64,000 nucleotides of DNA from a virus. Made by a program: the position numbers and the translations under genes. Positions 8,887-40,951 of this stretch are shown here, in pieces. The notes beneath the pieces are model-generated. The model had not been told where the DNA came from. It saw only the letters and a list, made by a program, of their open reading frames with translations, and ran no database searches. Where the stretch lies: positions 5,093 to 69,092 of the IMG/VR virus record IMGVR_UViG_2867359821_000001, one strand, 5' to 3'. Position 1 is the first letter of the stretch. Each line of letters opens with the position of its first letter.

Positions 8887-9095
8887 TAGCTCGTCCTCTC
8901 AAAGGCTTCCGGGTCGACGATGGGCGGCGGTGGCCACGCGCCTTCCGTGGCGACGCCACCGTTCCACCAGCGTGACTTCATCTCCTGACCTGCGGGCGTG
9001 ATCGGGAGGTCGTTGAAGATCGGGCCGACGTAGTGGGGGATCCGGCTGAAAGCCAGCCCCGTGAGGATGCCGGCGATGAACGCGAGGGTCTTCAT
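8886..9095 (-). CDS. small membrane protein
   Basis: MKTLAFIAGILTGLAFSRIPHYVGPIF...; start trimmed to ATG 9093-9095 overlapping upstream stop. Confidence 0.4.
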   Translation of the reverse strand: MKTLAFIAGILTGLAFSRIPHYVGPIFNDLPITPAGQEMKSRWWNGGVATEGAWPPPPIVDPEAFERTS

Positions 9096-9412
9096 TCGTC
9101 GCCCTCCTTCACGAAATCCGGGTGCGTCGGGCACTCAGGGGTGCACGTCGCGTGTATCGGGGCGTCGATGTCGACCGAGTACAGCCAGTCGAGAAACTTG
9201 CCGCGCAGCTGTGCCTCGTTCAGGCGGCTCGCCTGGGTGGTGAGCGCCTCGGCATTCTCGGAACGCTGGATGCCGATGTCGGGCCTGGTGTTGTTCGGCC
9301 AGCGACGCAGGAAGTCTTCCTCGTCGGGCACCCACTTGCCGTGCTCGTCCTGCTTCACGGCACGCTTGGTGGCGTTCAGGATGAACATGGTCGGTGCGGT
9401 TGCGGTGGTCAT
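9092..9412 (-). CDS. hypothetical protein (106 aa)
   Basis: MTTATAPTMFILNATKRAVKQDEHGKWVPDEEDF...; trimmed start, ATGA coupling. Confidence 0.45.
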   Translation of the reverse strand: MTTATAPTMFILNATKRAVKQDEHGKWVPDEEDFLRRWPNNTRPDIGIQRSENAEALTTQASRLNEAQLRGKFLDWLYSVDIDAPIHATCTPECPTHPDFVKEGDE

Positions 9413-9657
9413 GCCGATACCTCCGGTTCGATCTCGATGGCGGGAAGGATGGCGTCCGGCTCCGAGATCTCGGCCTCCAGGACGGGGATGAACTGGTCGA
9501 AGATCGCCATGGGGATCTTCAGGTTCACCTTGACGGCGATCTGGCCGGACTCGAGCGCCGGCTTCCTGACCTTCATGGCGGCCACGCGGGGTGGCTTCCA
9601 CGTATGCGAGTGCGGCTCGAGGATGAGGTAGACGGAGGTGGTGCGAGTGTCTCTCAT
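9409..9657 (-). CDS. hypothetical protein (82 aa)
   Basis: ORF-track ORF, coupled. Confidence 0.4.
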   Translation of the reverse strand: MRDTRTTSVYLILEPHSHTWKPPRVAAMKVRKPALESGQIAVKVNLKIPMAIFDQFIPVLEAEISEPDAILPAIEIEPEVSA

Positions 9658-9902
9658 CGCGTGCCCCTCTCCCGGATGGTCCAGCCGTTCTCCGCGATCG
9701 CGGCCTCGAGGGCTGCCACGGCGGTCGCAAATGTGGCGCCGTGACGGGTCATCTCCACGCGCTCACCGGTGGAGAGGTAGCCGTCCAGGGTCGCGGTCCA
9801 CTGGTACGTGACCATAGGCTCTGCGCTGGAGAGGCCCGTCTCCTCATCCAGCACGTCCTCGGTCGCGTTGATCGAGCGGCGAGTGACGTACGGAGCGGTC
9901 AT
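9654..9902 (-). CDS. hypothetical protein (82 aa)
   Basis: ORF-track ORF, coupled. Confidence 0.4.
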   Translation of the reverse strand: MTAPYVTRRSINATEDVLDEETGLSSAEPMVTYQWTATLDGYLSTGERVEMTRHGATFATAVAALEAAIAENGWTIRERGTR

Positions 9903-10102
9903 GCTCGGTACCCCCGCGAGTCAGTCTCGCCCGGAGCGGTCGCTCGAATGGTGATCCAGCTGCCCCAGAGAGGGCCCTGGCTGGCTACGTACGCCTCGGC
10001 GTCATCCACGGACGCGAACGGGCCGATGTAGCGCGGCAGCTGGTCGCTGTGGCCGGAGTCCCGACCCAGCTCGGCCTCGATGAAGAACGGCTTGTCGGTC
10101 AT
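9899..10102 (-). CDS. hypothetical protein (67 aa)
   Basis: MTDKPFFIEAELGRDSGHSDQLPRYIGPF...; trimmed from longer ORF 9899..10558. Confidence 0.4.
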   Translation of the reverse strand: MTDKPFFIEAELGRDSGHSDQLPRYIGPFASVDDAEAYVASQGPLWGSWITIRATAPGETDSRGYRA

Positions 10103-10359
10103 TTCGATCCCCTGCCGAAGATGACGCTCAGGATCAGGAGTGTCGGCAGGATGAGCCCGAGGACGTTGGACAGCGTCGCCGGGTGACCGTTCGCCAGTTC
10201 CACGATGCTCGAGGCGAGCCAGACGAGCGCCACGAGAGCGCAGAGCCCAGCCGCGAGAGCGAGGGCCACGATCACTGCCCCCAGGCCGACGAGCGACCAG
10301 TCGAAGGGCCGGCGGCGCGTCTGCCTGGACGCGAGCCGCTGTGCAACGGTGGGACTCAT
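10099..10359 (-). CDS. membrane protein (2 TM)
   Basis: LVGLGAVIVALALAAGLCALVALVWLASS...LGLILPTLLILSVIFG hydrophobic segments. Confidence 0.45.
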   Translation of the reverse strand: MSPTVAQRLASRQTRRRPFDWSLVGLGAVIVALALAAGLCALVALVWLASSIVELANGHPATLSNVLGLILPTLLILSVIFGRGSK

Positions 10360-10646
10360 CGCGCCACCGGGCCGCGCTGGGCGTTCGGCATCTGCGGGCC
10401 GCCGGTCTTGGCGACTCGCGCCGTGTGGCCGGTTTGCATGTGCGTGAGGCGCGGCGCGTCGAAGACGGCCTCGATGACCTGCTTGCGCTCGGTGTCATAC
10501 GTCTCGAGGCAGACCCGCTCGCAGGCGTGCTGGAAGAACGACACCGAGGTGGCGACACCTTCGAAGCCGGTCTGCTTGTCGATGTAGCGCTCGCCCGTGA
10601 TGATGTCGCTCTCGTAGGCGTGCTTCCTGCGTGCTCCGATGGTCAT
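10356..10646 (-). CDS. hypothetical protein (96 aa)
   Basis: ORF-track ORF, coupled. Confidence 0.4.
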   Translation of the reverse strand: MTIGARRKHAYESDIITGERYIDKQTGFEGVATSVSFFQHACERVCLETYDTERKQVIEAVFDAPRLTHMQTGHTARVAKTGGPQMPNAQRGPVAR

Positions 10647-10948
10647 ACTGCGCTCTCCTCTGCTTCTGCGCTCAGGAGCGCGGTGATGGTGGTGGGGTCT
10701 TCGGTGACGGCGGACAGGAGTTCGATCAGGTCGCCGAGGAAGGCCCCGATCCCGTCGTTCGGCGCGGCGTTGCTCAGTGTGACGCTGACCTCCACCTCGG
10801 TCTCCGCCTCGTTCATGTCGATGTCGATCAGGATCCGCATGGGGCCGGTCGGGCCGAAAGCGACCGTGCGCAGCTCGCCGGTGGAGCCGCCTGGCGGGAA
10901 GTTCTTGATCTGGATGTTGACGGCATCCGGGCTGGTCTCATCGGTCAC
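10643..10948 (-). CDS. hypothetical acidic protein (101 aa)
   Basis: ORF-track ORF, coupled. Confidence 0.4.
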   Translation of the reverse strand: MTDETSPDAVNIQIKNFPPGGSTGELRTVAFGPTGPMRILIDIDMNEAETEVEVSVTLSNAAPNDGIGAFLGDLIELLSAVTEDPTTITALLSAEAEESAV

Positions 10949-11670
10949 TTCTTGCCCTCCGACTTCTTCTTGGCGGGCTTCTTCGGGACTGGCTCCGGGG
11001 TCGTCCCCTTGATGTCGTCGATGCGGATGCGACCATCGTCGAAGATGCTCGCGAAGACGGCGGCGCCTCCGGCCGCCGGGTCGAAGCCGATGCGCGGGTA
11101 GTAGAACGAGAGCTGCTGCGCCGGGGCGAGCCCGGCGACCTTCTTCTCGGTGGCCTCTCGCTCGTCGGCTGCCTTCTTCTCTGCGCGGACCTCGAGCGCG
11201 GTCTGGATGTCGGCCCAGAAGCGGTCGGTGTCGTGACCCAGCGTGACCTGTTCGATGTCGCCGCGCTTCGTGACCTTGGGGTAGCCGTGACGCTCGTACC
11301 CCTTGATCTCGAGGGCGTTGAGCAGGGCGGCGATCGTGTTGCGGCGGGCCAGATCTGCGGCGGTGCGCAGTTCTGCAGCCCAGCGCTCGGCGTCCGTGCT
11401 CGAAGCGTCCTTCGGGGCGGTCCAGTACGTCGTGAGCAGGGGGCCATGCGTGCCAACAGATGCGGGACCGGGGCTGGAGGTGAAGCCGGCCTTCCGAAGA
11501 GTGGTCTCCGCACGCTGCTTATCCCACTCGAGCTGTTCGATGCGGTCGCGCTGCTGCTCGACGCGGACTTCGTGGGATGAGACGCGCGATTCCGCGGCTT
11601 CGCGGTCGCTCTCCGAGCGCTCCAGCGCCTCGCGGAGCTGGCGGCGCGTCCTGGGGGTGGGGGTCGCCAT
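10945..11670 (-). CDS. hypothetical protein, coiled-coil N-term, Lys-rich C-term
   Basis: 241 aa, heptad-like N-terminus, PKKPAKKKSEGKK tail. Confidence 0.45.
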   Translation of the reverse strand: MATPTPRTRRQLREALERSESDREAAESRVSSHEVRVEQQRDRIEQLEWDKQRAETTLRKAGFTSSPGPASVGTHGPLLTTYWTAPKDASSTDAERWAAELRTAADLARRNTIAALLNALEIKGYERHGYPKVTKRGDIEQVTLGHDTDRFWADIQTALEVRAEKKAADEREATEKKVAGLAPAQQLSFYYPRIGFDPAAGGAAVFASIFDDGRIRIDDIKGTTPEPVPKKPAKKKSEGKK

Positions 11671-12257
11671 CAGAACTTCCTTCCGTGCTTGTGGGCACGC
11701 GTGGCGTTGTACGCGAGCTTCTCGAAGATGATCGAGGCTAGGTCGAAGCCCGCCTCGTGGGCGAAGTCGAAGGAGCGGATCACGATGTCGGCGATCTCGG
11801 AGGGGACGCCCTCCGGCTTGCCGATCGCGTCGTCCAGGACGTCGGGCTTCTCGCCGGCTGCCCAGGCGTAGGTGTCGCCGTTGACCTTCGCGGAGTACCA
11901 GGTCTCGTCGGAGCGGCGGCCGTTGCGGAGCTCCTCGATCGCTTCGGCAGCCTCGGTGACGATGAGGGCGAGGCGGGCGGTCTGGTAGTTGCGGAGGATC
12001 GCCTCCCAGTTCTCCTCTGGATCAGGCTTGCCATCCGGGCCCTCGGACAGACCGCCCGCGCGGTTGATGGAGCGGACGGCGTCGAGCTGGTCGCGGATCT
12101 TCAGACCCTCCTCGTGGAAGCCCTTGGCGGCGTTCGCTTCGCCGATGCGCTTCTGGATGTCGCGGAGTACGTTCTGCACGAGGTCCGGCGGGAAGTGAAA
12201 CTCGCGCTTGTGGACGATGCCGGCGGGGTCATAGCCCACCCCAGTGAAGCCGCTCAC
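11670..12257 (-). CDS. mazG: MazG-like nucleoside triphosphate pyrophosphohydrolase
   Basis: LIVTEAAEAIEELRNG (E-x-x-E-x-x-x-E metal-binding helix), SEIADIVIRSFDFAHEAG, C-terminal KLAYNATRAHKHG resembling MazG K-N-x-x-R-Y tail. Confidence 0.5.
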   Translation of the reverse strand: MSGFTGVGYDPAGIVHKREFHFPPDLVQNVLRDIQKRIGEANAAKGFHEEGLKIRDQLDAVRSINRAGGLSEGPDGKPDPEENWEAILRNYQTARLALIVTEAAEAIEELRNGRRSDETWYSAKVNGDTYAWAAGEKPDVLDDAIGKPEGVPSEIADIVIRSFDFAHEAGFDLASIIFEKLAYNATRAHKHGRKF

Positions 12258-15615: not shown

Positions 15616-15739
15616 GACGCAAATCTTGAGGTATCACACGCACGCACGTCGCGAGGTTGAGCGGACAGCCGCGAGCCACCTGGAGAGAGTTATCCACAGC
15701 CCTTTTCACACCGCCTTTCCCGCAAGTTTGCACACACCT

Positions 15740-16180
15740 CCCTAGACCCCTCTACATATCTACTCTTCAACAGTATGAATGTAGTAGTAGAGGTTTGTGT
15801 GTGTAGAGCGTTGAACCCCTCTCCCTTGAAACCATTGGGATCGCGAGGCTCTCAGGAACCTCCCAGCCTTACACATACCCGTTTTTTACACATTCACGCC
15901 TCAACATTCAACACGTAGTGCCGACACAGCCTATCTGCAAATTGTTGAGGCTAACAGTCCAAATGTAGAAATGGCGTGAAGCTCATGTGTAAGAAAACGT
16001 GAATGTGTACTTCGGCGCGAATATGTAGCAGCATCTGGCGCGACATCGCCAGCCGACTTATCCACAGCCCTTCGTTACCCAACCGTGACCGAAAACAAGC
16101 GGCTAACTGTTGAACATCTAGTTCAACATCGCTACTGTTGAACTACTGGGCAACGAAGCCACCCCCACACGAAACGGAGA
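15740..16180. promoter_or_regulatory. AT-rich (about 45% GC) non-coding region with iteron-like repeats; candidate operator cluster and/or replication origin
   Basis: No ORF >=60 aa. Repeated TGTTGAAC (15810, 16108, 16136) with inverted GTTCAAC (16121). ATGTAG x3, TACACAT x2, CAACATTCAACAC. Confidence 0.45.
16110..16138 (+). promoter_or_regulatory. sigma-70-like promoter TTGAAC-N17-TACTGT overlapping palindrome GTTGAACatctaGTTCAAC
   Basis: -35/-10 spacing 17 nt; 7-bp perfect inverted arms at 16109-16127; about 45 nt upstream of gene at 16187. Confidence 0.45.
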
Positions 16181-16186
16181 ATGACC

Positions 16187-16309
16187 ATGGCACGACAGGA
16201 CCCGAAGCGGACCGCGCAGAGCAAGCAGCAGACCATCGCCCGCCGTCAGGCTCGCGCCGTTCGTGAGCGCCAGACGTTCCGCACCACGGCCTCCGGCCGC
16301 GCTCGCTGA
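16187..16309 (+). CDS. small arginine-rich basic protein (40 aa)
   Basis: MARQDPKRTAQSKQQTIARRQARAVRERQTFRTTASGRAR; GGAGA RBS 7 nt upstream. Confidence 0.4.
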   Translation: MARQDPKRTAQSKQQTIARRQARAVRERQTFRTTASGRAR

Positions 16310-16364
16310 TCCTCCCGGTTTAGCCCCTAAATTCTCTCCACCACCACACATCCTGGAGCACATC

Positions 16365-16925
16365 GTGACCACTCTCTCCGCAGAAACCGCCGACCGCTAC
16401 CACCGCTCAATCCTCGCCGCATGCGACGCTGATGCCCCGTTCGGATACGTCAACCGCCAGACCGACGAGCAGGCCCACGACTTCGACGAACTGGCACAGG
16501 CGCTCGACCTGGCGCCCCGCGTGCTGGATGACATGCTGACCATCGCCGACCGGATCGAGTCCGGCGAACTGCTGGAGGACGGTTCCGACTGGTACGACGA
16601 GAACGGCGACGAGCGCACGCTGCCCGACGACGCCGAACCGCACCCGACCCGCGCCGAGATCCTGGGCGACTGGGAGCCCGCGAGCGCTCAGGACTACCTC
16701 CAGGACGCCCTGAGCATCCGCTACACGGCGAGCGGGCGCGGCGCGGATGACTACATGAGCGCGGATATCGCTATCGCGATCGGCGGACCCAACGTCTGGA
16801 TTTCGACGGGCGATAAGACGCTGACCGTCTACTGGGGCGGCGAGCCGGAAACGCGCGGCCTCCCGTTCGAGTTCTGCGAGCAGCTGGACGAAGCGTGCGC
16901 CGAATACTGGGGGATGAGCGAGTGA
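16365..16925 (+). CDS. hypothetical acidic protein (about 186 aa)
   Basis: GTG start after GGAGCACATC; VTTLSAETADRYHRSILAACDADAPFGYVN... Confidence 0.45.
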   Translation: MTTLSAETADRYHRSILAACDADAPFGYVNRQTDEQAHDFDELAQALDLAPRVLDDMLTIADRIESGELLEDGSDWYDENGDERTLPDDAEPHPTRAEILGDWEPASAQDYLQDALSIRYTASGRGADDYMSADIAIAIGGPNVWISTGDKTLTVYWGGEPETRGLPFEFCEQLDEACAEYWGMSE

Positions 16926-24534: not shown

Positions 24535-24542
24535 GGAGCACC

Positions 24543-26108
24543 ATGGAACGCCTCACCCCCCACGACTACCAGCAGGCAGCAATCGACAAGATCCTCGCCG
24601 AGCCGACGCGCGCCGCGCTGATCGGCGACGAGGTGGGCATGGGTAAGACCTTGCTCGCGGCCGAGGTGGCAATCCAGGCCGGGTGGCGGCGTGCACTATT
24701 CATCGGCATCGCGGACACCTTCGACCAGTGGAAAGACCACCTCGAAGGGCAATCGGAGGGTGCGGTGACCATCCGCCGCATGGAGTCCACGAAGGCGGGG
24801 CGCGCGGCGTTCAAGGACTTCTTGGCAGGCGAGCCTGGCTTCTACTTCGCGGGCATCGCGTGGCTGGTGGCGCAGGACTGGAAGTACCAGAACAAGCTCG
24901 ACTTCCAGGGCAACCCGATCGAGAAGATCGACAAGAAGACGGGCATGCCCACCGGGAAGATGGAGCGCGAGCGCATCCACCTGAAGACGTTCGAGAAGAT
25001 GTCGAAGCGCAAAGGGAGCGCGGTCGACGCGGTGGTTTTCGATGAGGCGCACCAGGTCGCCAACAAGGATTCGATCGGCCGCAAGACACTCATCACGTTT
25101 CGCGGGGCGCCCGACGCCGACGGCAACCCCACGATGCCGTGGAAAATCGCGCTCAGCGCGACGTGGGCCGGCAACTCGTTCGAGAACGCCTGGAGCCTCC
25201 CGCGCTGGTGCTGGCCCGACCTAGTGCCGGCGTTCTGGAACTGGCACGACATCTGGTGCGCGACCGAGAAGGTCTACGTGCCCGGCCGCAAAGAGCCGGT
25301 CAACCGCGTCATCGGCGAGAAGGTGCCGGGCGAGTTCATCAAGACGCTGCCCTGCTACATCGACAACCGCAACCATGAGAAGGCGCCAGCTCCGACCATC
25401 ATCCACGTCGACCCGACGCCGCAGCAGGCCTCACAGTTCGAGGATCTGAAGAAAGATCTGATGACCTGGGTCGAGACCGAGGCGGGGGAGACTCCACTGG
25501 TGGTCGACGTGCCGGGCGGGCTGTACGCCCGCTTCAAGCAGCTAGCGCTGGCCGAGTTGACTGTTGATGAGGACGGCGGCGTGGCGTTCGCACCGAACGC
25601 AGCATCCGCGAAACTGCGCGTGCTGAAAGGCATCCTCGACCACTGGGGCGACCAGCCGGTCATCCTGTTCACCGATTCGAAGATCTTCGCCCACCTGGCC
25701 GCCGACCGGATGCGCGCCGCAGGGTATAGCGCCGAGGCATGGACGGGCGACGTCAGCCGGTTGGAGCGCGCTCGGATCAAGGCGGACTTCGTCGAGGGGC
25801 GCCTGCAGTACCTGATCGGCACCGTGCAGTCGATGGGCACGGGCCTCGACGGGCTGCAGAAGGTCTGCTCGAAAGCTGTCTGGCTGAACGTGCCCGACGG
25901 TGACCCGAAGCTTGAGGAGCAGGCGCTCGGTCGCGTGTTCCGTCAGGGCCGCACGCTCGCCCACGGCGAGTTCGAGCACGTCCGACTGGTCATGCGTGAT
26001 TCACAGGACGAGGGAATCCTTGAGCGACTGCTCGTCAAGGGCGCCTCCATCCGCTCCTCGATCGACAGCCGGATGGCGAACACCGTCGAACAAGCTATTG
26101 CAGCTTGA
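24543..26108 (+). CDS. SNF2/DEAD-box-like superfamily II helicase
   Basis: Walker A GDEVGMGKT, DEAH box (AVVFDEAHQV), helicase-C motifs (SMGTGLDG, QALGRVFRQGR), 521 aa. Confidence 0.75.
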   Translation: MERLTPHDYQQAAIDKILAEPTRAALIGDEVGMGKTLLAAEVAIQAGWRRALFIGIADTFDQWKDHLEGQSEGAVTIRRMESTKAGRAAFKDFLAGEPGFYFAGIAWLVAQDWKYQNKLDFQGNPIEKIDKKTGMPTGKMERERIHLKTFEKMSKRKGSAVDAVVFDEAHQVANKDSIGRKTLITFRGAPDADGNPTMPWKIALSATWAGNSFENAWSLPRWCWPDLVPAFWNWHDIWCATEKVYVPGRKEPVNRVIGEKVPGEFIKTLPCYIDNRNHEKAPAPTIIHVDPTPQQASQFEDLKKDLMTWVETEAGETPLVVDVPGGLYARFKQLALAELTVDEDGGVAFAPNAASAKLRVLKGILDHWGDQPVILFTDSKIFAHLAADRMRAAGYSAEAWTGDVSRLERARIKADFVEGRLQYLIGTVQSMGTGLDGLQKVCSKAVWLNVPDGDPKLEEQALGRVFRQGRTLAHGEFEHVRLVMRDSQDEGILERLLVKGASIRSSIDSRMANTVEQAIAA

Positions 26109-26153
26109 GTAAACACTATGTACCGTGAAATAAGACTTAAAAGGAGATTAAAC

Positions 26154-27434
26154 ATGAGCGAAACCACCGCACAGTATCCCGTCAAGCTGAGGGGCACAGG
26201 GGCCCCCGTCCTGATGTGGGCCCACGAGCACGAAGTAGAAGCATCCGCGCTGCAGCAGCTCCGCGACGTCAGCGAGCTGCCGGGCCTCCACGGCCTGCGC
26301 GTGATGCCCGACGTGCACTGGGGCAACGGCGCCACCGTTGGCTCCGTCATCGCGATGGAGCAGGCCCTGGCGCCGGCTGCCGTAGGCGTCGACATCGGCT
26401 GCGGCGTCAATGCCGTCCGTACCAACCTCACGCTCGAGGACCTCGGCGATCGCGACCTCCACGCCTTGCGACTGCGTTGGGAGAAGGTCGTGCCCGTCGG
26501 TTTCAGCAGCTACGAGCGCGCCGGCGATCAGCTGAAGGTACTCAACCCCCAAGAGAAGCAGCGCACTGCGCGGTTCCTCGACTCGGTGGACACCCTCCGC
26601 GCTGACCTCACGGAGCGGAGGAACAGCGACGCAGCAGTGCGCGGCCGGGCGGCCCACCAGCTGGGCTCCCTCGGCGGCGGCAACCACTTCATCGAGCTGT
26701 GCTCGGACTCGATTGGCCGACTCTGGATCACGCTGCACTCGGGAAGCCGGAACATCGGCAAGAGCCTCGCGGAGCGGCACATCCAGATCGCCAAGGGCCT
26801 GAAGGAGAACGAGGAGCTGCCGAAGCACCTGCAGCCGCTGAGCCTGTTCTACAAGGGCACGAAGGAAATGGATGACTACCTCCACGACCTGCGCTGGGCT
26901 CAGGAGTTCGCGATGCTCTCGCGTACCGTGATGATGGAGGCGGTCAAGCACGAGCTGCAGGACTACTTCGAGAACTCGGGCCTCTCGGCGCCGCGCCGGT
27001 ACGTCAACTTCGACGAGGAGATCAACTGCCACCACAACTATGTGGCGGAAGAGATGATCGACGGCAAGATGATGATCGTCACCCGGAAGGGCGCGATCAG
27101 CGCGAAGAAGGGCGAGCGGGCGCTGATCCCCGGCTCCATGGCCACAGGCTCATACGTGGTGCGCGGCCTCGGCAACGAGGCCTCCTTCCAGTCCGCGTCA
27201 CACGGCGCCGGCCGCAAGATGAGCCGAGGCGCTGCGAAGGAAGCCTTCCGGGGCGTGGATGACGGAGCGGCTCAGATCGCACGTCAGCTGGGCAGCGTGG
27301 AGTCCCGCCGTGATAGCGGCATCCTCGACGAGCTGCCCGAAGCGTACAAGCCGATCGAGCAGGTGATCGCGGCAGAGAAGGATCTGGTCGAGGTCGAACA
27401 CAAGCTCGAGACGATTCTCTGCGTGAAGGGCTGA
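26154..27434 (+). CDS. rtcB: RtcB RNA 3'-phosphate/5'-OH ligase
   Basis: GNHFIEL, LIPGSMATGSYVVRGLG, SFQSASHGAGR signature. AAGGAG RBS in an AT-rich 40-nt leader. Confidence 0.85.
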   Translation: MSETTAQYPVKLRGTGAPVLMWAHEHEVEASALQQLRDVSELPGLHGLRVMPDVHWGNGATVGSVIAMEQALAPAAVGVDIGCGVNAVRTNLTLEDLGDRDLHALRLRWEKVVPVGFSSYERAGDQLKVLNPQEKQRTARFLDSVDTLRADLTERRNSDAAVRGRAAHQLGSLGGGNHFIELCSDSIGRLWITLHSGSRNIGKSLAERHIQIAKGLKENEELPKHLQPLSLFYKGTKEMDDYLHDLRWAQEFAMLSRTVMMEAVKHELQDYFENSGLSAPRRYVNFDEEINCHHNYVAEEMIDGKMMIVTRKGAISAKKGERALIPGSMATGSYVVRGLGNEASFQSASHGAGRKMSRGAAKEAFRGVDDGAAQIARQLGSVESRRDSGILDELPEAYKPIEQVIAAEKDLVEVEHKLETILCVKG

Positions 27435-27841
27435 TGATGGCCGTCAAGGAACGAATGGGCTACGCCATCGAGTGCGACTTCCCGGACTGCGGGACGAGCA
27501 CGCAGGACCTCGGCGACTACGCCTTCTGGGGCTCGCTGGAGGATGCCGTGCAGGAGTGGGTTGACCATGACGGCTATGCCGACGACCTGGGCTACTACTG
27601 CCACGGTCACACGGTGTGGAACGACTCCGAGGAAGAGGGTATTGAGGAGCGTGTGCCGATGCCCTACTCGATCGACACACTCTTCGACCTCGCTGAACGC
27701 CGGATCGCGTCGAAGATCGACTACCTGACGCGGAACGCGCTCTACAACCACGGCAACCGCGTCCGCGACCTTGCATCGCGCCAGGCTGCTCGCTATGCAC
27801 GCGCCAGCCGTGAAGTGAAGATCAGGATGGTGCAGCGATGA
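27434..27841 (+). CDS. hypothetical protein (135 aa)
   Basis: ORF-track ORF; Cys/His-containing. Confidence 0.45.
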   Translation: MMAVKERMGYAIECDFPDCGTSTQDLGDYAFWGSLEDAVQEWVDHDGYADDLGYYCHGHTVWNDSEEEGIEERVPMPYSIDTLFDLAERRIASKIDYLTRNALYNHGNRVRDLASRQAARYARASREVKIRMVQR

Positions 27842-28257
27842 GCGAGCCCACAAAGATCGAGAAGCGCGGCTTCCGGGTGCCGGTGAGCGAGGAGTTCACG
27901 CTCATGCTGTCCGGCTTCGAACGCAAGGGGCACTGGGAGGAAACACCGTTGACCAACGAAGACCGCGAGTTGCATGCGCGCGCCGTCGCCGCGGTCGAGG
28001 AAGTCAACTCCAACCCGTGGGTCCGACTCTCGGGCTACGACTACGACCTCGACGTCGCCCCACTCAAGCCGAAGCGCCACTTCGTGCCCGAAGAGACGCA
28101 CGAGGAGCACCTGGCCCGGTGGATCGCCGCCGGCCGCCCGGAGCGCTCATTCGCTCGCGACGCCATGCAGCAGCGCATCGCGCACACCTTCGCCAGCGGG
28201 ATCATCTCGCCGGAGAGCGCGTTCCGCAACGCAGCCAGACTGACAGGAGCAGCATGA
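27838..28257 (+). CDS. hypothetical protein (139 aa)
   Basis: ORF-track ORF. Confidence 0.45.
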   Translation: MSEPTKIEKRGFRVPVSEEFTLMLSGFERKGHWEETPLTNEDRELHARAVAAVEEVNSNPWVRLSGYDYDLDVAPLKPKRHFVPEETHEEHLARWIAAGRPERSFARDAMQQRIAHTFASGIISPESAFRNAARLTGAA

Positions 28258-28748
28258 GCACCGAACTGATCGCGGAAGCCCGCGGCTTTATCGAAGGCAG
28301 CGACCCGAACAACGCCCGCACGACGCTCATCCGCGACCTCGCGGACGCACTCGAGAAGGCTCACACCCCGAGCGCCCCTACCGACGACGAGCGGGAAGCG
28401 CTGGCTCAGGCTCTCCACAACGCCGTCGAAGAGATCTACCCCGTGTCACTCTCGGTGCGCCGTGATCGGTACTACGCACAGGCCGATGTCGTGCTCGCTG
28501 CTGGCTTCCGTCGCACCTCAGTACCGGAGCCGAGCGCGCACTGCGATGGATGCGCGAAGTTCCAGCATCATCACTGCTACCACTGCGGGAAGCGCGCCGG
28601 ACTGTCTCACCCGATGTACTGCCCGAACTTCACCAAGGATGATCCGATCGCGGCACACGGTCGCGAGCTTCGACGCAAGTACGGCGATGACGTGACGGTC
28701 CCCGGTGGAACGCGCGTCACCGACCAGGGAGAGGAGAAGAACGCATGA
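28254..28748 (+). CDS. hypothetical Cys-rich protein (164 aa)
   Basis: CDGCAKFQHHHCYHCGKRAGLSHPMYCP cluster; trimmed start ATG 28254. Confidence 0.45.
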   Translation: MSTELIAEARGFIEGSDPNNARTTLIRDLADALEKAHTPSAPTDDEREALAQALHNAVEEIYPVSLSVRRDRYYAQADVVLAAGFRRTSVPEPSAHCDGCAKFQHHHCYHCGKRAGLSHPMYCPNFTKDDPIAAHGRELRRKYGDDVTVPGGTRVTDQGEEKNA

Positions 28749-28999
28749 GCGGCAAGACGTACTTCGAGCGGAACAACGAGGGCATCGGGCGTGCGATTGC
28801 TCGCAACGAGTGTGCTGAGCCCGGCCCTTGGGGAACTGTGTGCACGGAGGACATCTGGCACCGCTACTCGCACTATGACAGCGGTGATGACTCATCGTGG
28901 CAGGACGACTGGCGCGACTACGGCCCGGATGACGAGGACGATCCCGACACCCGTCCCGCCACCCCACCCGAGAACCGAGAGGAACAGAGCAATGGCTGA
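28745..28999 (+). CDS. hypothetical acidic protein (84 aa)
   Basis: ORF-track ORF. Confidence 0.4.
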   Translation: MSGKTYFERNNEGIGRAIARNECAEPGPWGTVCTEDIWHRYSHYDSGDDSSWQDDWRDYGPDDEDDPDTRPATPPENREEQSNG

Positions 29000-29000
29000 G
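28958..29000 (+). repeat. 45-bp direct repeat copy 1 (GCCACCCCACCCGAGAACCGAGAGGAACAGAGCAATGGCTGAG), contains RBS + start codon of next gene
   Basis: 41/45 identity with copy at 29985-30027. Confidence 0.85.
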
Positions 29001-29234
29001 ACGCCGAGCATCAAGATCCAGATCGATGAGGCCGCGCTCAAGGAGCAGGTCACGAAAGCGCTACAGGAGTCCATGCAGGATGCAGCCATGCGACTCCGGT
29101 CCGCCGCCGACGCGCTCGACGGTGGCCGGTGGATCACCGAGTTCGAGGAGTATCAGGCGAAGCGACTCCGCGATGAGTTCGAGCGAGGGCGACGGGATGC
29201 TCTGGCCGAGAACCGAGAGAGCTACGAGCGATGA
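28992..29234 (+). CDS. hypothetical protein (80 aa)
   Basis: MAETPSIKIQIDEAALKEQVTKAL...; GAGAGGAA RBS inside repeat. Confidence 0.45.
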   Translation: MAETPSIKIQIDEAALKEQVTKALQESMQDAAMRLRSAADALDGGRWITEFEEYQAKRLRDEFERGRRDALAENRESYER

Positions 29235-29398
29235 CGTTTCGCGGCGGCGACGGCCTTGTCCCTGATCCAGGTGGACGGAGGGACTTCACCAGCCGCGTTC
29301 TCGATGAGCGCGAGTTCGGCGTCCGAGAGGCGGAGGTTGATCGCGTTGGTGCGGGCGTTGCCGGTGGATGGTCGTCCGCGGGGTCGCTTGTCGGTCAT
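29222..29398 (-). CDS. ribbon-helix-helix-like DNA-binding protein with AT-hook (58 aa)
   Basis: MTDKRPRGRPSTGNARTNAINLRLSDAELALIENAAG. Minus-strand gene embedded in plus-strand region. Confidence 0.45.
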   Translation of the reverse strand: MTDKRPRGRPSTGNARTNAINLRLSDAELALIENAAGEVPPSTWIRDKAVAAAKRHRS

Positions 29399-29411
29399 AC
29401 GGATGACTATA

Positions 29412-29457
29412 CCGTAAAGCGGAAAAGAGTGGACATGGACGGATTTATGCTTTACGA
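29412..29457. promoter_or_regulatory. inverted repeat CCGTAAAGC ... GCTTTACGA between divergent RHH and Zn-ribbon genes (putative operator)
   Basis: 8/9 matching arms separated by 28 bp, seen in sequence. Confidence 0.4.
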
Positions 29458-29464
29458 TAAATAC

Positions 29465-29659
29465 ATGGAGAACGCAACGATGCAGTGCAAGCACCCCCTC
29501 GGATTCGCCACCCTTCGCAACGGCGAGGTCACCTGCTTCGACTGTGGCACCCCGACCCCCGGACGCTGCGTGTGCGGTGCTCTCTTTCGCACGATGCACT
29601 GCATGAGCCGCGGGCACATGAAGGGTCCGACGCTGGTCGTTGAACAGGGAGAAAACTGA
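29465..29659 (+). CDS. zinc-ribbon protein (63 aa)
   Basis: MENATMQCKHPLGFATLRNGEVTCFDCGTPTPGRCVCGALFRTMHCMSRGH. Confidence 0.4.
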   Translation: MENATMQCKHPLGFATLRNGEVTCFDCGTPTPGRCVCGALFRTMHCMSRGHMKGPTLVVEQGEN

Positions 29660-30546
29660 TGCCTGAACCACTGAACGCCGAACGAGAGAATGCCGCAGCC
29701 GCCTACGTGCGAGCGGATGACGGAGGGCTCTACTCCACATCGGACGACAGGTTGCATAACGCGTTCGTGTCGGGCGCCGAATGGGAGCGCGACGAACATG
29801 GGGCGGGAGGAATCGCCGGTCTTCCACCTACGGCGACTCCCGCCCCAGCAGGCGCACCCAGTGACGAAGCGCGGAAGGGGTGGAGTGCCGCGGACCGTAG
29901 AGACGCTGAGACTGAGGCCAAGCGACGTTTCAGCGAGTGGCAGAACAGCAACTCGGGGCCGAGTGGTGGAAGTCGATCCATTCCGCCACCCCACCCGAGA
30001 ACCGAGAGGAACAGAACCTTGGCTGAGCACACGCTAACCACCGAGACGATCCGTGAGCGCTTCGCTGATGCGTATGGCAACTACGCGAACGGCTTGGAGG
30101 ACTTCGACCGCTGGCTGGCTGCTCACGATGCCGAGGTGCGGGCCGATCACGAGAGTGAGGCCGCGGAGCGACTGGGCCTGCTGTTGTGGCATCTGACCGG
30201 TGGTCGGCTCTCGAAGAGCACCTATGACGTGTCGACGATGGTCGCTCAGATCGAGGACACGTTCGAGCGCGAGCGAGCTGCGGAGCAGGCGGATGTGGTG
30301 CGGGCTGGTGTCGTAGCCGAGGAACCGGACTGGGAGTACGGATACGAGCTCATCGAGTCCGACACCCGTGACGTTCTCACGCGGGGATTCCCGTTCGATA
30401 CGGCTGCTCAGGCAGCAGTGGATGCGCTCCGTCGCGCCGACGAGGAGTTCGACCCGGAATACCCACCGCTGTCGCCGGAGGTCGTTCGTCGTCGCAAGGC
30501 TGGCCCGTGGGTACCGGTGAACCAGGAAGGAGCAAGTCATGCGTGA
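29659..30546 (+). CDS. hypothetical protein (295 aa); may be two genes split at TTG 30019
   Basis: The second 45-bp repeat copy lies in-frame mid-gene and reproduces an RBS+start context. Confidence 0.4.
   Translation: MPEPLNAERENAAAAYVRADDGGLYSTSDDRLHNAFVSGAEWERDEHGAGGIAGLPPTATPAPAGAPSDEARKGWSAADRRDAETEAKRRFSEWQNSNSGPSGGSRSIPPPHPRTERNRTLAEHTLTTETIRERFADAYGNYANGLEDFDRWLAAHDAEVRADHESEAAERLGLLLWHLTGGRLSKSTYDVSTMVAQIEDTFERERAAEQADVVRAGVVAEEPDWEYGYELIESDTRDVLTRGFPFDTAAQAAVDALRRADEEFDPEYPPLSPEVVRRRKAGPWVPVNQEGASHA
29985..30027 (+). repeat. 45-bp direct repeat copy 2
   Basis: GCCACCCCACCCGAGAACCGAGAGGAACAGAACCTTGGCTGAG. Confidence 0.85.
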
Positions 30547-31081
30547 TCCGTACGCAAGCCAGAGAAGGCAGTTCATCAGCGAGACGCAGCGCCACGAGAT
30601 GCGCGTTCTCCACGACGAGGGGCTCTATCGCCACCTCCGCTTCCAGGCGCCGGGCACCGGCATCTGGCACTGGGATCTCATTACCTGGCCCGGCTCGCTT
30701 GCGATCCGCGGCGACATCGGCGAAGGCCATATCTTCACCCGTGTCGACGACATGCTGCGGTTCTTCGATCACGGCCAACACGCCCACCAGATCAACGCCG
30801 ACTACTGGGCGGAGAAGCTGGATCTCGGTCGCAACTCCGTGAAGGAGTTCTCGGCCGAGCGTTTCGGCGTGTGGTGCGCCGATGGCGAGTACCCGATCAA
30901 CTCAGCGGATGGGCTCGTCGACCACGAGCAGGCCGCGATCGACACCCTGGACGATCTGGGCGTCGAGTGGGACTTCGAGGACCTCGAGTCGTGGCGTGAC
31001 TACGGCCACCACTTCATCATCGCGCTGCACGCGATCCTCTGGGGTGCGAAGCGGTATCACGAGAGCAAGGAGCGAGCATGA
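30539..31081 (+). CDS. hypothetical protein (180 aa)
   Basis: ORF-track ORF. Confidence 0.5.
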   Translation: MRDPYASQRRQFISETQRHEMRVLHDEGLYRHLRFQAPGTGIWHWDLITWPGSLAIRGDIGEGHIFTRVDDMLRFFDHGQHAHQINADYWAEKLDLGRNSVKEFSAERFGVWCADGEYPINSADGLVDHEQAAIDTLDDLGVEWDFEDLESWRDYGHHFIIALHAILWGAKRYHESKERA

Positions 31082-31227
31082 ACGAGGAAGAGGAGACGGC
31101 CACGCCGTACCAGGTGTACGTGTTCGACTGCCCGAGGTGCGGCGGTCGGACGGAGATCGGCGATCAGGATCCGGCCGCCGTTGAGGAGTGCGCGGATTGC
31201 GGCGTAGATGTGGTGATGGGCCGATGA
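31078..31227 (+). CDS. zinc-ribbon protein (49 aa)
   Basis: MNEEEETATPYQVYVFDCPRCGGRTEIGDQDPAAVEECADCGVDVVMGR: two CxxC pairs. Confidence 0.4.
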   Translation: MNEEEETATPYQVYVFDCPRCGGRTEIGDQDPAAVEECADCGVDVVMGR

Positions 31228-31943: not shown

Positions 31944-31962
31944 TGGGGGTTATCCAGGATGG

Positions 31963-36016: not shown

Positions 36017-36961
36017 ATGTTCCTGTTCATCCTCGCGATCATCCTCGCGATCATCGCAGTCGTCGGCGTGTTCGTCGCCACATCCTCAAAGGATCTGCGC
36101 TTCGGCGCGATCATCACCACCGCAATCACAGCGCTGGGCGCCATCATCGCTATCTTCTTCGCCACCTTCTACGCCAACGGCGTCGGTGAGGCGAAGGTCA
36201 AGGTCAGCTCCGTCGACCGGCAGGTCGTCGGGACTGTTGAAGAGCCTGGATCCGGCTTCAGAGCGCCGTGGGAAGACTTCGTCGAGTTCGACCTGTTCTC
36301 TCAGGAGCTGCTGTTCGCCGGCAGTGACGGCGGCGCCCCGAGCTACACCGGCGGCACGGTCAACGGCCGCGAGATCACCGTCTCTGTCGGCGGCGTCTCG
36401 GGCGGCTCCACGCAAGCCCAAGTCGACATGACCTTCGTCTACTCCGTGAACGCCGACGCCATCAAAGAGATCTACTCGGAGTACCGGTCGCAGGAGCGGT
36501 TCACTGAGCAGATCGTGACCCGCCAGGTGCTCTCGATCTCTCGGCAGGTGCCCTCCGAGTACAGCGCCATCGAGTTCCGCGGCTCCAAGCGAGGCGAGGC
36601 CGAGACGCGCATCCTCGACGCGCTCAACGAGAAGCTGGGCAAGTACGGGGTCGAATTCTCTGCGGTGACCATTCAGGACGTGCGATTCTCTGAGGACGTC
36701 GAGAAGTCGCTCACGTCCATCGAGCAGGCCAACCAGAAGGCGCAGGAGGCCGAGGCCAACCAGCGCACGAAGGAAGTCGAGAATGAGACGCTGATCGCAT
36801 CCGCTCAGGCTGAGGCGGACGCCAACAAGATCCTGTCGCAGTCGCTGTCGGCACCCGTGCTGCAGCAGCGCTACCTCGACACACTGGCGAAGCTCGCCAA
36901 GGAGGGCAACCTCGTGGTCGTCCCCGAGGGCTTCAACGGCCTGGTGAACGTCGGCAAGTAG
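36017..36961 (+). CDS. SPFH/band-7 (stomatin/prohibitin-like) membrane protein
   Basis: N-terminal TM segments then VDRQVVGTVEEPGSGFRAPWEDFVEFDLFSQELLF... and coiled-coil C-half, 314 aa. Confidence 0.6.
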   Translation: MFLFILAIILAIIAVVGVFVATSSKDLRFGAIITTAITALGAIIAIFFATFYANGVGEAKVKVSSVDRQVVGTVEEPGSGFRAPWEDFVEFDLFSQELLFAGSDGGAPSYTGGTVNGREITVSVGGVSGGSTQAQVDMTFVYSVNADAIKEIYSEYRSQERFTEQIVTRQVLSISRQVPSEYSAIEFRGSKRGEAETRILDALNEKLGKYGVEFSAVTIQDVRFSEDVEKSLTSIEQANQKAQEAEANQRTKEVENETLIASAQAEADANKILSQSLSAPVLQQRYLDTLAKLAKEGNLVVVPEGFNGLVNVGK

Positions 36962-40066: not shown

Positions 40067-40434
40067 ACGACGAGACCATGCCACTGCCCGTCTACCCGTG
40101 GCCCATCAGCGAGGCGCGCATGGCGCTGCTCCGGGAGGCGAAGGCCCGTATTGACATCCCGATCCGCGTGGTCCCTGTGGAGGCCGCTCATGGCTCGCCT
40201 GGGCGCGTTCTGTGCTTCGGCCTGACGCCGCCGTTCATGTGCAAGACGGCGCCGATTGCGCCGCAGAACGTGTTGAGCGTCGACTCGATCGAGAACGCGC
40301 TCCGGTTCTGGCTCAACCCGTTCTCCGATGAGCGTCAGTTCGACGAGGCGCACTGGATGAGCAACGTCATGGGGTGCGACGTCACCCTCGTTGCCGAAGA
40401 GGACCACACGGGCAAGGTTCGATTCGATGTCTGA
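40063..40434 (+). CDS. hypothetical protein (123 aa)
   Basis: GTG start, GTGA coupling. Confidence 0.45.
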   Translation: MNDETMPLPVYPWPISEARMALLREAKARIDIPIRVVPVEAAHGSPGRVLCFGLTPPFMCKTAPIAPQNVLSVDSIENALRFWLNPFSDERQFDEAHWMSNVMGCDVTLVAEEDHTGKVRFDV

Positions 40435-40951
40435 TTCCTGGGCACCCATCCCCGGCTGGGAGAAGCTCTACGAGGTGTCGAATGCCGGCCGGGTCCGCAG
40501 CTTGGATCGGCACTGTAACCGCGGGTTCCGAGGATTTGGCCTGGTGCCGGGTCGCCTACTGAAGGCGATCTACCGCGAGGGCTACCCCTCCGTCAACCTT
40601 CGGGATGGCGAGCGAGTGGAGCAACACGGTATCCATGTCCTCGTGGCCAGCGTCTTCGTTCCAGGCCGTGGTGAAGGGCTCGAGGTATGCCATCGCAACG
40701 GCGACCGCCGCAACCCCCAAGCTTCGAACTTGCGGTGGGGCACTCGCCAGAGCAACATCCTCGATCAGATCGCGCACGGCACACACGCGCAGTCGTCGAA
40801 GACGCACTGTCCGCAGAGACACCCGTACACCAAGGCGAACACCTACTCGCCTCCATCTAGGCCCACTGCGCGCCATTGTCGAGCTTGCATGAGAGCCCGG
40901 CACCAGGGGATCGATCCATCGTCCGTCATCGTTGAGGAGGAGATCCGATGA
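40427..40951 (+). CDS. HNH homing endonuclease (NUMOD4 + HNH_3)
   Basis: WAPIPGWEKLYEVSNAGRVRS (NUMOD4) and EVCHRNGDRRNPQASNLRWG (HNH). Confidence 0.7.
   Translation: MSDSWAPIPGWEKLYEVSNAGRVRSLDRHCNRGFRGFGLVPGRLLKAIYREGYPSVNLRDGERVEQHGIHVLVASVFVPGRGEGLEVCHRNGDRRNPQASNLRWGTRQSNILDQIAHGTHAQSSKTHCPQRHPYTKANTYSPPSRPTARHCRACMRARHQGIDPSSVIVEEEIR

What the first reader, a model, noticed from the sequence alone, without database searches (positions are those of the whole stretch)
26154..27434. Phage-encoded RtcB RNA ligase next to an SNF2 helicase: candidate tRNA-repair counter-defence
A full-length RtcB carries the GSM..SY..G and HGAGR signatures. It has an unusually AT-rich leader in a 67% GC genome, which suggests horizontal acquisition. 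RtcB alone can reseal 2',3'-cyclic-phosphate/5'-OH breaks made by anticodon nucleases and other RNA-targeting defence toxins. No archease or tRNA genes are visible in the window.
Basis: partly seen in the sequence, partly recalled or inferred. Interest (0 to 1): 0.55.

Follow-up and report, generated by a model that had tools for sequence, protein, structure and literature searches.

The report
Ordinary RtcB RNA ligase in prophage
This is an intact RtcB RNA-repair ligase carried by a prophage in a Microbacterium chromosome; hundreds of phages carry such a gene, its proposed role in undoing host RNA-cutting defences was published in 2011, and that role is still untested.

Summary
Window 26154..27434 (+) encodes a full-length 426-aa RtcB (Pfam PF01139, E=3e-108). 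It is 45% identical to E. coli RtcB, and every metal-binding residue and the guanylylated histidine are conserved.

- The element is a ~69 kb siphovirus-type prophage in the chromosome of Microbacterium sp. CGR2. RefSeq already annotates the protein as "RtcB family protein".
- The AT-rich leader is real and is the most AT-rich 45-mer in the window. However, a related prophage fragment has the same helicase and the same leader followed by a different gene. The leader therefore belongs to the backbone and was not imported with rtcB.
- rtcB is the first gene of a ~5 kb variable cargo region.
- The helicase–RtcB adjacency is not conserved, and the helicase does not reach Pfam's SNF2 threshold.
- No tRNA, archease, Pnkp or RtcA was found in the window or in the two 10-kb flanks that cover the rest of the prophage.

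RtcB homologues occur in 699 phage records. The counter-defence idea was published in 2011 and has been repeated since, and I found no experimental test of it.

Verdict: a new member of a well-known kind, of low interest. The counter-defence role is plausible but cannot be tested here.

The parts
26154..27434 (+). rtcB, encoding a 426-aa GTP/Mn-dependent 3'-phosphate/5'-OH RNA ligase. Predicted catalytic residues are D80, C83, N177, H178, H195, H294, H350 (the GMP acceptor) and R354.
   Evidence: Pfam PF01139 E=3e-108. Alignments to P. horikoshii PH1602 and to T. thermophilus and human RtcB structures. 45% identity to E. coli RtcB over the full length, E=4e-106. dN/dS of about 0.28 against the phage orthologues.
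26109..26153 (+). 45-nt AT-rich intergenic leader (31% GC). It carries the Shine-Dalgarno sequence AAAGGAG at 26140..26146, 7 nt before the ATG. It is a backbone element that marks the left edge of a variable cargo region.
   Evidence: Lies within the lowest-GC 45-nt stretch in the 64 kb window. Conserved in relative L084 up to the ATG, with GACTTAAAAGGAGA identical. No sigma-70-like promoter was found. No significant RNA fold, z = -1.9.
24543..26108 (+). SF2 helicase of 521 aa in the replication module. It is a conserved backbone gene and not a partner of RtcB.
   Evidence: ResIII and Helicase_C pass the Pfam thresholds, while SNF2-rel_dom falls below its threshold. phrog_62 'DNA helicase' E=2e-53. 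Only weak similarity to the C-terminal parts of DrmD and BrxH. 91% identical in L084, where a different gene follows it.
27434..31227 (+). The rest of the variable cargo region: about 9 small ORFs of unknown function. The first, 27434..27841 (135 aa), overlaps the rtcB stop codon by 1 nt. None has a counterpart in relative L084.
   Evidence: No protein or DNA match to L084 between window 26157 and about 31187 (protein level) or 31950 (DNA level). No Pfam hit to any of the ORFs tested; only three PHROG families of unknown function. The downstream genes are not shared with Rasputia or Hendrix.

Best explanation
The gene encodes a catalytically competent, stand-alone RtcB RNA ligase.

Chemistry. 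This is inferred from the E. coli and Pyrococcus enzymes, drawing on my own knowledge of that literature. Mn2+ ions are held by D80, C83, H178, H195 and H294. H350 is guanylylated by GTP. A 2',3'-cyclic phosphate end is opened to a 3'-phosphate, and GMP is transferred to it to give RNA(3')pp(5')G. The 5'-OH of the other fragment then attacks, restoring a normal 3'-5' phosphodiester bond.

Genomic setting (shown). The gene is accessory cargo in a ~69 kb temperate siphovirus-type prophage of Microbacterium sp. CGR2. It sits in the rightward early/replication operon, immediately after a conserved helicase, behind a strong and unstructured ribosome-binding leader.

Biological role (inferred, not shown). 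RtcB is made early in lytic growth and reseals tRNA, and possibly rRNA or mRNA, cut by host metal-independent RNases that leave cyclic-phosphate and 5'-OH ends. Such RNases include HEPN-type anticodon nucleases, MazF-type toxins and colicin-like tRNases. Resealing would keep translation running, as a one-enzyme equivalent of the T4 Pnkp+Rnl1 answer to PrrC.

Confidence. About 0.9 that it is an active RtcB ligase, and about 0.5 that counter-defence is its selected role.
For: Family and active site:
- Full-length Pfam RtcB match, E=3e-108.
- All metal ligands and the nucleophilic histidine align with P. horikoshii D95, C98, H203, H234, H329 and H404, and with E. coli D75, C78, H168, H185, H281 and H337.
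- 45% identity to E. coli RtcB, which has no archease partner.
- Purifying selection, dN/dS of about 0.28 against Rasputia and Hendrix.

Phage context:
- Terminase, tape measure, major tail protein and integrase are present; capsid and portal lie in the left flank.
- The gene is co-oriented with the helicase, WhiB and PrimPol genes.
- Strong SD sequence with 7-nt spacing.

Accessory and mobile nature:
- Present here but absent from the same slot in relative L084.
- 79% nucleotide identity to rtcB of otherwise unrelated Microbacterium phages, confined to that ORF.

Distribution and prior hypothesis:
- RtcB homologues were found in 699 phage records.
- The same hypothesis has been published for actinophages and jumbo phages (PMC3203893, PMC7824862, PMC13313380).
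Against: - No experiment links any phage RtcB to a defence system in the literature I could search.
- The prophage has no tRNA genes, so the tRNA-plus-RtcB pairing that motivated the 2011 hypothesis is missing.
- Closely related cellular RtcBs are stand-alone housekeeping-context genes, so a general RNA-maintenance role is equally compatible.
- Overexpressing a mycobacteriophage RtcB was mildly inhibitory to M. smegmatis (PMC11373665), which shows the enzyme is not innocuous.
Confidence: 0.5

Rival explanations
1. General RNA upkeep rather than counter-defence. The ligase repairs tRNA, rRNA or mRNA breaks that arise during infection from stress-activated host toxin-antitoxin RNases or from the phage's own nucleases. 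It would simply keep the translation apparatus working, as proposed for the E. coli rtcBA operon.
For: Its closest cellular relatives (up to 56% identity) are stand-alone chromosomal genes among housekeeping neighbours. It has the same fold and residues as E. coli RtcB. The prophage also carries other nucleic-acid enzymes: an RNase T-like exonuclease, a 2H phosphoesterase and several HNH nucleases.
Against: The gene is dispensable cargo that a close relative lacks at this position. That pattern fits conflict-driven accessory genes better than a core maintenance function. No phage-encoded cyclic-phosphate-generating RNase was detected.
Confidence: 0.2
2. Lysogenic-conversion gene. RtcB is expressed from the resident prophage, possibly from a promoter in the AT-rich leader, and protects the Microbacterium lysogen against ribotoxins from competitors or against superinfecting phages.
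For: The element is integrated in a chromosome. The leader is the most AT-rich spot in the window, and AT-rich gaps can hold promoters.
Against: No sigma-70-type promoter match in the leader. The same leader precedes an unrelated gene in L084. The gene lies inside the co-directional early lytic operon with no terminator upstream of it on the + strand.
Confidence: 0.1
3. DNA-end function in replication or recombination. RtcB enzymes can also act on DNA 3'-phosphate ends (my own knowledge of the E. coli enzyme), and the gene sits beside a helicase in the replication module.
For: Adjacency to the SF2 helicase and position in the same operon as the PrimPol gene.
Against: The adjacency is not conserved. 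L084 has the helicase without RtcB, and Rasputia and Hendrix have RtcB without the helicase. In other loci the only helicase similarity is weak and 4 kb away.
Confidence: 0.05
4. Processing of a phage or host RNA, such as joining tRNA halves or exons after intron removal, or alternatively a neutral passenger gene with no selected role.
For: RtcB is the tRNA-splicing ligase of archaea and animals. In archaeal viruses it co-occurs with many tRNA genes (PMC8651126).
Against: No tRNA genes in the window or in the two 10-kb flanks that cover the rest of the prophage. No Rfam family of any kind in the window. An intact active site and dN/dS of about 0.28 argue against a decaying passenger.
Confidence: 0.05

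Closest known systems
RtcB-like RNA ligases of Microbacterium phages Hendrix (gp132) and Rasputia (gp126)
   Same: 76-78% amino-acid identity, depending on method, and 79-80% nucleotide identity over essentially the whole ORF, with the same length class and the same host genus. Both are already annotated as 'RtcB-like RNA ligase' or 'tRNA splicing ligase', and Hendrix is described in PMC7302621.
   Different: The genome backbones are unrelated, and no flanking gene is shared. Hendrix is a 97.7 kb genome with four tRNA genes (PMC7302621). This element is a ~69 kb integrated prophage with no tRNA. In those phages rtcB overlaps the upstream gene, with no AT-rich leader.
E. coli RtcB (b3421, rtcBA operon)
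   Same: 45% identity end to end, E=4e-106, with the same ~410-430 aa architecture. D75, C78, N167, H168, H185, H281, H337 and R341 are all conserved. Neither has an archease partner.
   Different: There is no rtcA or rtcR next to it (one search shows the E. coli operon; searches show none here). It does not reach the NCBIfam equivalog cut-off (158 bits against 407). It is phage-borne.
Phage T4 Pnkp + Rnl1 repair of PrrC-cleaved tRNA-Lys
   Same: The proposed biological logic is the same: a phage enzyme reseals tRNA broken by a host anticodon nuclease that leaves 2',3'-cyclic-phosphate and 5'-OH ends (my own knowledge; discussed in PMC7824862).
   Different: The chemistry and protein families are entirely different. 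T4 uses end-healing followed by an ATP-dependent ligase. RtcB joins the ends directly with GTP. No Pnkp or Rnl-type ligase was detected in this prophage. The T4 case is experimentally proven and this one is not.
Mycobacteriophage subcluster K1 RtcB (e.g. Anaya gp88, Adephagia gp84)
   Same: An actinophage RtcB in the non-structural region of a temperate siphovirus. This was the first place where a role against host tRNA cleavage was proposed (PMC3203893).
   Different: Only about 40-42% identical. K1 phages pair RtcB with a tRNA gene, and this prophage has none.
PrfH-RtcB2 ribosome rescue/repair module, and archaeal/human RtcB-archease
   Same: The same RtcB fold and catalytic residues.
   Different: The TIGR03073 'release_rtcB' score is 130 bits against a cut-off of 272, and there is no PrfH or archease gene. 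The protein is about 60-80 residues shorter than the archaeal and human enzymes.

Membership tests
RtcB RNA ligase family (Pfam PF01139) | Full-length match to the family profile above the curated threshold | tested here: met
   363.2 bits against a gathering score of 27, covering profile positions 1-426 of 426.
RtcB RNA ligase family (Pfam PF01139) | Two-metal site formed by Asp, Cys and three His residues (P. horikoshii D95, C98, H203, H234, H329) | tested here: met
   D80, C83, H178, H195 and H294 align with them and are invariant across the E. coli, phage and Nocardia sequences.
RtcB RNA ligase family (Pfam PF01139) | Nucleophilic histidine in the SHGAGR motif that accepts GMP (E. coli H337, P. 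horikoshii H404) | tested here: met
   H350 in SASHGAGRKMSR aligns with both.
RtcB RNA ligase family (Pfam PF01139) | GTP/Mn2+-dependent joining of 3'-phosphate or 2',3'-cyclic-phosphate ends to 5'-OH RNA ends | not testable with these tools
   Requires a biochemical assay.
E. coli-type RtcB equivalog (NCBIfam NF007153) | Score above the curated equivalog cut-off | tested here: not met
   158.1 bits against a cut-off of 407. It is a distinct actinobacterial/phage subfamily despite 45% identity.
PrfH-associated RtcB2 (TIGR03073 release_rtcB) | Score above the cut-off and an adjacent prfH gene | tested here: not met
   130.5 bits against a cut-off of 271.8. No release-factor-like gene in the Pfam scans.
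Archease-assisted RtcB system | An archease gene (PF01951) in the same genome or element | tested here: not met
   No archease hit in the Pfam scans of ORFs from window 1-47.5 kb and 61-64 kb, nor in the precomputed Pfam lists for both flanks. The tail-fibre ORF at 47.5-51.4 kb has no Pfam check at all; the neighbouring tail genes (about 51.3-62.5 kb) are covered only's precomputed list. The rest of the host genome was not seen.
SNF2 helicase (the neighbouring gene) | SNF2-related ATPase domain above the Pfam threshold | tested here: not met
   SNF2-rel_dom scores 15.6 bits against 24.9, while ResIII and Helicase_C pass. The best matches in the defence and NCBIfam libraries cover only the C-terminal part of DrmD and BrxH, far below the NCBIfam cut-off for DrmD. 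It is therefore a generic SF2 helicase that may be SNF2-like.
Phage counter-defence (anti-RNase) genes | Demonstrated rescue of phage growth from a defined host RNase defence | not testable with these tools
   No such experiment for any phage RtcB turned up in the literature searches.
Integrated temperate phage (prophage) | Phage structural, packaging and integration genes flanked by host genes on one contig | tested here: met
   Terminase, tape measure, major tail protein, tail protein and serine integrase. Portal and capsid are followed by host genes on the left. Host siderophore and ABC-transporter genes lie on the right. The contig is 3.68 Mb, from Microbacterium sp. CGR2.

The most novel reading that the evidence does not exclude
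The conserved AT-rich leader with its strong ribosome-binding site, directly after the helicase, may mark a hot-swappable cargo slot in this small prophage lineage. Recombination occurs exactly at the start codon. One relative carries rtcB plus about 9 unknown ORFs there, and the other carries 8 unrelated unknown ORFs. If this slot is an anti-defence island, the unknown genes beside rtcB would be candidates for new counter-defence functions. That includes the 135-aa Cys/His-rich protein whose start overlaps the rtcB stop codon.
Probability: 0.2. Interest if true: 0.4.

Novelty: new member of a known kind. Interest (0 to 1): 0.15.

Why it matters
It matters little as a discovery. RtcB ligases are common and routinely annotated in actinophage genomes, and this exact protein is already in RefSeq as an RtcB family protein. 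The suggested role has been in print since 2011. Its modest value is as a tractable test case. It is a single-gene RNA-repair cargo with no tRNA genes and no accessory repair enzymes, in a prophage of a culturable Microbacterium strain. A related prophage fragment carries a different gene in that slot. This could be used to test experimentally, for the first time that I could find, whether a phage RtcB counters RNA-cleaving defences.

Tried and rejected
1. Helicase plus RtcB as a functional module (by analogy with DDX1-RTCB). Rejected: the adjacency is absent from the closest RtcB-bearing phages and from the closest helicase-bearing relative.

2. AT-rich leader as a scar of import. Rejected: it is conserved with the backbone in L084.

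3. Leader as a recurring phage promoter or motif. It occurs once in the window. Exact-pattern scans of viral and metagenome collections gave only one unrelated chance hit. There is no sigma-70 match and no significant RNA structure.

4. Downstream ORFs as archease substitutes or conserved partners. They have no Pfam, PHROG or PADLOC hits and are not shared with Rasputia, Hendrix or 80 cellular RtcB loci. I did not model their structures, because their 90%-identity cluster has only two members.

5. Y RNA, tRNA-like or other RNA partners. Rfam found nothing at gathering thresholds and ARAGORN found nothing.

6. More relatives through the helicase in viral contigs. Only one turned up, at 41% identity, with neither the leader nor RtcB.

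7. Compositional evidence for recent transfer. None: rtcB has GC 65.7% and GC3 0.88, the same as its neighbours.

8. Method caveat. The whole-window Pfam scans used concatenated ORF translations, which may lose some sensitivity. The block from 47.5 to 61 kb (tail genes) was not included. Of that block, only about 51.3-61 kb is partly covered's precomputed Pfam list and a few PHROG scans. The 47.5-51.4 kb tail-fibre ORF has no family check.
Full report
**Observation**

The ORF reported at 26154..27434 (+) exists as described. It starts at an ATG, ends at a TGA and encodes 426 aa. It matches the Pfam RtcB family over the entire profile (PF01139, E=3e-108, 363 bits, positions 1-426 of 426) and the phage family phrog_1075 'tRNA splicing ligase' (E=9e-123).

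An in-frame ATG 36 nt upstream, at 26118, is unlikely to be the real start. It lies 10 nt after the helicase stop codon and has no ribosome-binding site. The ATG at 26154 is preceded by AAAGGAG with a 7-nt spacer. The closest homologues begin at the equivalent position, and the public annotation also uses the 426-aa form.

**Active site**

HMMER alignments to solved structures pair the query residues with those of Pyrococcus horikoshii PH1602:

| Query | P. horikoshii PH1602 | Role |
|---|---|---|
| D80, C83 | D95, C98 | metal ligands |
| N177, H178 | N202, H203 | H178 is a metal ligand |
| H195 | H234 | metal ligand |
| H294 | H329 | metal ligand |
| H350 | H404 | GMP-accepting histidine |

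The roles come from my own knowledge of the RtcB literature. I fetched E. coli rtcB from the MG1655 record and aligned it. It is 45% identical over the full length (E=4e-106). E. coli D75, C78, N167, H168, H185, H281, H337 and R341 correspond to invariant columns in the five-sequence alignment.

The protein belongs to the short bacterial size class (about 410-430 aa) that includes the E. coli enzyme. It does not reach the NCBIfam cut-offs for the E. coli-type equivalog (158 bits against 407) or for the PrfH-associated 'release_rtcB' type (130 against 272). It is therefore best described as an actinobacterial/phage subfamily of RtcB. A Nei-Gojobori comparison with the two closest phage orthologues gives dN/dS of about 0.28, so the gene is under purifying selection.

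**What the element is**

The exact protein is encoded on a 3.68 Mb contig, RBHX01000001.1 of assembly GCA_003626735.1. Cluster look-up names the organism as Microbacterium sp. CGR2, and the protein as WP_120775059.1, 'RtcB family protein'.

The window is almost entirely prophage:
- a large terminase subunit runs off the left end;
- a 1221-aa tape measure protein, a major tail protein, a further tail protein and a large serine integrase are all recognised by PHROGs;
- a GC3-based gene call shows a leftward arm (1-13.6 kb), a rightward early/replication arm (14.2-42.3 kb) and a leftward lysis/tail arm (42.3-64 kb).

I fetched 10 kb on each side. To the left of the window lie portal and capsid genes, followed by host genes for a glyoxalase and a FUSC transporter. 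To the right, host siderophore and ABC-transporter genes begin about 10 nt beyond the integrase start. The prophage is therefore about 69 kb, running from roughly window position -5200 to 64000.

rtcB lies in the rightward arm, co-oriented with the helicase, HTH and WhiB-like regulators, an SPFH protein and a PrimPol/DUF3987 primase-helicase.

**Partners claimed to be absent**

ARAGORN finds no tRNA or tmRNA in the window or in either flank. Rfam finds no RNA family at gathering thresholds.

Pfam scans of concatenated ORF translations covering 1-47.5 kb and 61-64 kb found no archease, Pnkp, RtcA, Hen1, Rnl-type ligase or Ro60. The precomputed Pfam lists for the flanks show none either. Two caveats apply. 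Concatenation may cost some sensitivity. The tail genes between 47.5 and 61 kb were not included in those scans; the tail-fibre ORF at 47.5-51.4 kb has no Pfam check at all, and the rest is covered only's precomputed list.

It is not remarkable. E. coli RtcB also works without archease (my own knowledge). Rhodococcus cluster CR phages are already described as having RtcB without tRNA genes (PMC13313380).

**The helicase**

The upstream gene, 24543..26108, is an SF2 helicase. ResIII and Helicase_C pass the Pfam thresholds, but the SNF2-related domain does not (15.6 bits against 24.9). PHROGs calls it a DNA helicase (phrog_62, E=2e-53). Defence-system and NCBIfam models give only weak matches confined to the C-terminal domain, for DrmD, BrxH and DEAD-box helicases.

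Its adjacency to rtcB is not conserved:
- the closest RtcB-bearing phages have only small hypothetical genes upstream;
- the closest helicase-bearing relative has no RtcB after the helicase;
- in 80 cellular RtcB loci, the only helicase similarity is a 28% match 4 kb away in two MAGs.

I therefore reject a helicase-ligase module.

**The AT-rich leader**

The leader is real and extreme. The stretch 26109..26153 is 31% GC, and it lies within the lowest-GC 45-nt stretch of the window, which averages 65.4% GC. It was not imported with rtcB, however.

A Logan metagenome contig (L084, 18.9 kb) is syntenic with window 12.8-35.6 kb. Its helicase is 91% identical at the protein level. The DNA alignment (87% identity) runs through the intergenic leader and stops exactly at the start codon (L084 9991-11608 against window 24533-26156). 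Within the leader, GACTTAAAAGGAGA is identical in both.

After the ATG the two sequences are unrelated. Protein-level homology resumes at the HTH gene (window about 31188) and DNA-level homology at 31951. In L084 the slot holds eight small ORFs with no Pfam or PHROG match. In the window it holds rtcB plus about nine small ORFs, of which three match only PHROG families of unknown function.

So rtcB is the first gene of a ~5 kb variable cargo region whose left boundary is a conserved translation-initiation leader. The rtcB coding sequence itself has backbone composition (GC 65.7%, GC3 0.88, against 0.87 for the helicase). The better evidence for horizontal movement is gene-level mosaicism. Among 50,697 phage records, a 5-kb query around the gene matched only at rtcB. 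The best match was 79-80% nucleotide identity to Microbacterium phages Hendrix and Rasputia, whose flanking genes share nothing with this prophage.

The leader showed no sigma-70-like promoter and no significant RNA structure (z = -1.9). It does not recur in the window. It has no informative matches in the viral or metagenome collections.

**Relatives**

A tblastn search finds RtcB homologues in 699 phage records. These include 221 Mycobacterium, 63 Bacillus, 58 Listeria, 25 Gordonia and 19 Microbacterium phages. The closest hits are:

| Relative | Amino-acid identity |
|---|---|
| Rasputia, Hendrix (Microbacterium phages) | 76-78%, depending on method |
| Percival (Microbacterium phage) | 59% |
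| Closest cellular homologues in GTDB representative genomes (Nocardia, Cellulomonas, Micropruina and others) | up to 56% |
| Peregrin (Rhodococcus phage) | 46% |
| Mycobacteriophages | about 40-42% |

The neighbours of five of the cellular genes are ordinary chromosomal genes such as hydrolases, transporters and dehydrogenases. None has rtcA or archease beside it. The gene thus belongs to a Microbacterium-phage clade related to stand-alone actinobacterial RtcBs.

**Mechanism and role**

The chemistry can be inferred with high confidence from family membership and the conserved catalytic residues. The biological role cannot be determined from sequence. Early lytic expression, accessory status and mobility among phages all fit this.

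The idea is not new. Pope et al. proposed it for subcluster K1 mycobacteriophages in 2011 (PMC3203893). Iyer et al. discussed it for jumbo phages (PMC7824862). It was repeated for Rhodococcus phages in 2026 (PMC13313380). Four full-text searches found no experiment demonstrating it for any phage RtcB. The only functional datum I found is that overexpressing Adephagia RtcB gives small colonies in M. smegmatis (PMC11373665).

I could not verify whether VapC (PIN-domain) cleavage products are RtcB substrates.

The rivals are general RNA upkeep, lysogenic conversion, a DNA-end role, RNA processing and a neutral passenger. They are weighed in the rival-explanations section, and none is excluded outright.

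**Verdict**

Two of its supporting arguments fail: the leader as a sign of import, and the helicase as a partner. The element is a prophage rather than a free phage. This is a new member of a well-known kind, and interest is low.

The most novel reading still open is that the leader-bounded cargo slot is an anti-defence island whose unknown genes deserve attention. With only one relative available, that reading is weakly supported.

Noticed in passing
window 5785..6381 (-): A 198-aa protein with two H-x-T-x motifs (HVTA and HLTL), typical of 2H phosphoesterases. It matches phrog_755 'RNA ligase' at E=1e-20, and weakly matches Pfam 2_5_RNA_ligase2 (E=8e-4) and Acb1 anti-CBASS (E=0.014), both below threshold. 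It could be a LigT/ThpR-like cyclic phosphodiesterase or an Acb1-like degrader of cyclic-nucleotide signals. It lies 20 kb from rtcB on the other arm.
   Followed up: partly
window 2830..4263 (-): A 477-aa DndB-like / DGQHR-domain protein (Pfam DndB E=1e-23; TIGR03187 above its cut-off; PADLOC DndB E=5e-8). It sits alone between the nucleotide-metabolism genes and the gene I tentatively read as the small terminase subunit (2175..2672, by eye only; no PHROG match), with no other dnd genes seen.
   Followed up: partly
window 62552..63994 (-), with flanks L085 and L086: The large serine integrase sits at the right prophage end, directly upstream of the neck and tail genes. Portal and capsid genes are at the opposite (left) end next to host genes. 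In the circular phage genome, attP and int would therefore lie between the head and tail modules. A host siderophore-interacting-protein gene lies only about 10 nt from the integrase start.
   Followed up: partly
window 15616..16180: A 565-nt stretch with no convincing ORF and the lowest GC in the window (51%). It is dense in short direct and inverted repeats (TTACACAT, ACTGTTGAAC / TTCAACAGT). It overlaps a stretch (window 15746..16372) that is about 71% conserved in relative L084. It may be an operator or origin region, or a non-coding RNA. No Rfam match.
   Followed up: partly
window 4554..12257 (-): The leftward arm carries a cluster of nucleotide-metabolism genes: dNMP kinase (DNMK), NT5C 5'-nucleotidase, NrdH-like glutaredoxin, an RNase T/DnaQ-like exonuclease and a MazG-like pyrophosphatase. 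This combination can accompany modified-nucleotide pathways.
   Followed up: no
window 1594..2247 (-), 40391..40951 (+), about 60160..60912 (+): Three HNH or endonuclease VII-type genes. One lies next to the terminase. One combines NUMOD4 and HNH_3 after the primase region. One lies on the opposite strand inside the neck/tail operon; it is seen only in the precomputed annotation, and its window coordinates are my own conversion from L086 11600..12352. They look like homing-endonuclease insertions.
   Followed up: no
window 27838..28748 (+): The public gene call spans 911 nt but lists a 243-aa product. The sequence reads more naturally as two ORFs with an ATGA overlap, 27838..28257 (139 aa) and 28254..28748 (164 aa, Cys/His-rich). 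Neither has a Pfam or PHROG match.
   Followed up: partly
window 36017..36961 (+): An SPFH/Band-7 membrane-scaffold protein (Pfam E=1e-21) encoded immediately upstream of the PrimPol/DUF3987 primase-helicase in the early operon. This is an unusual neighbour for a replication gene.
   Followed up: no
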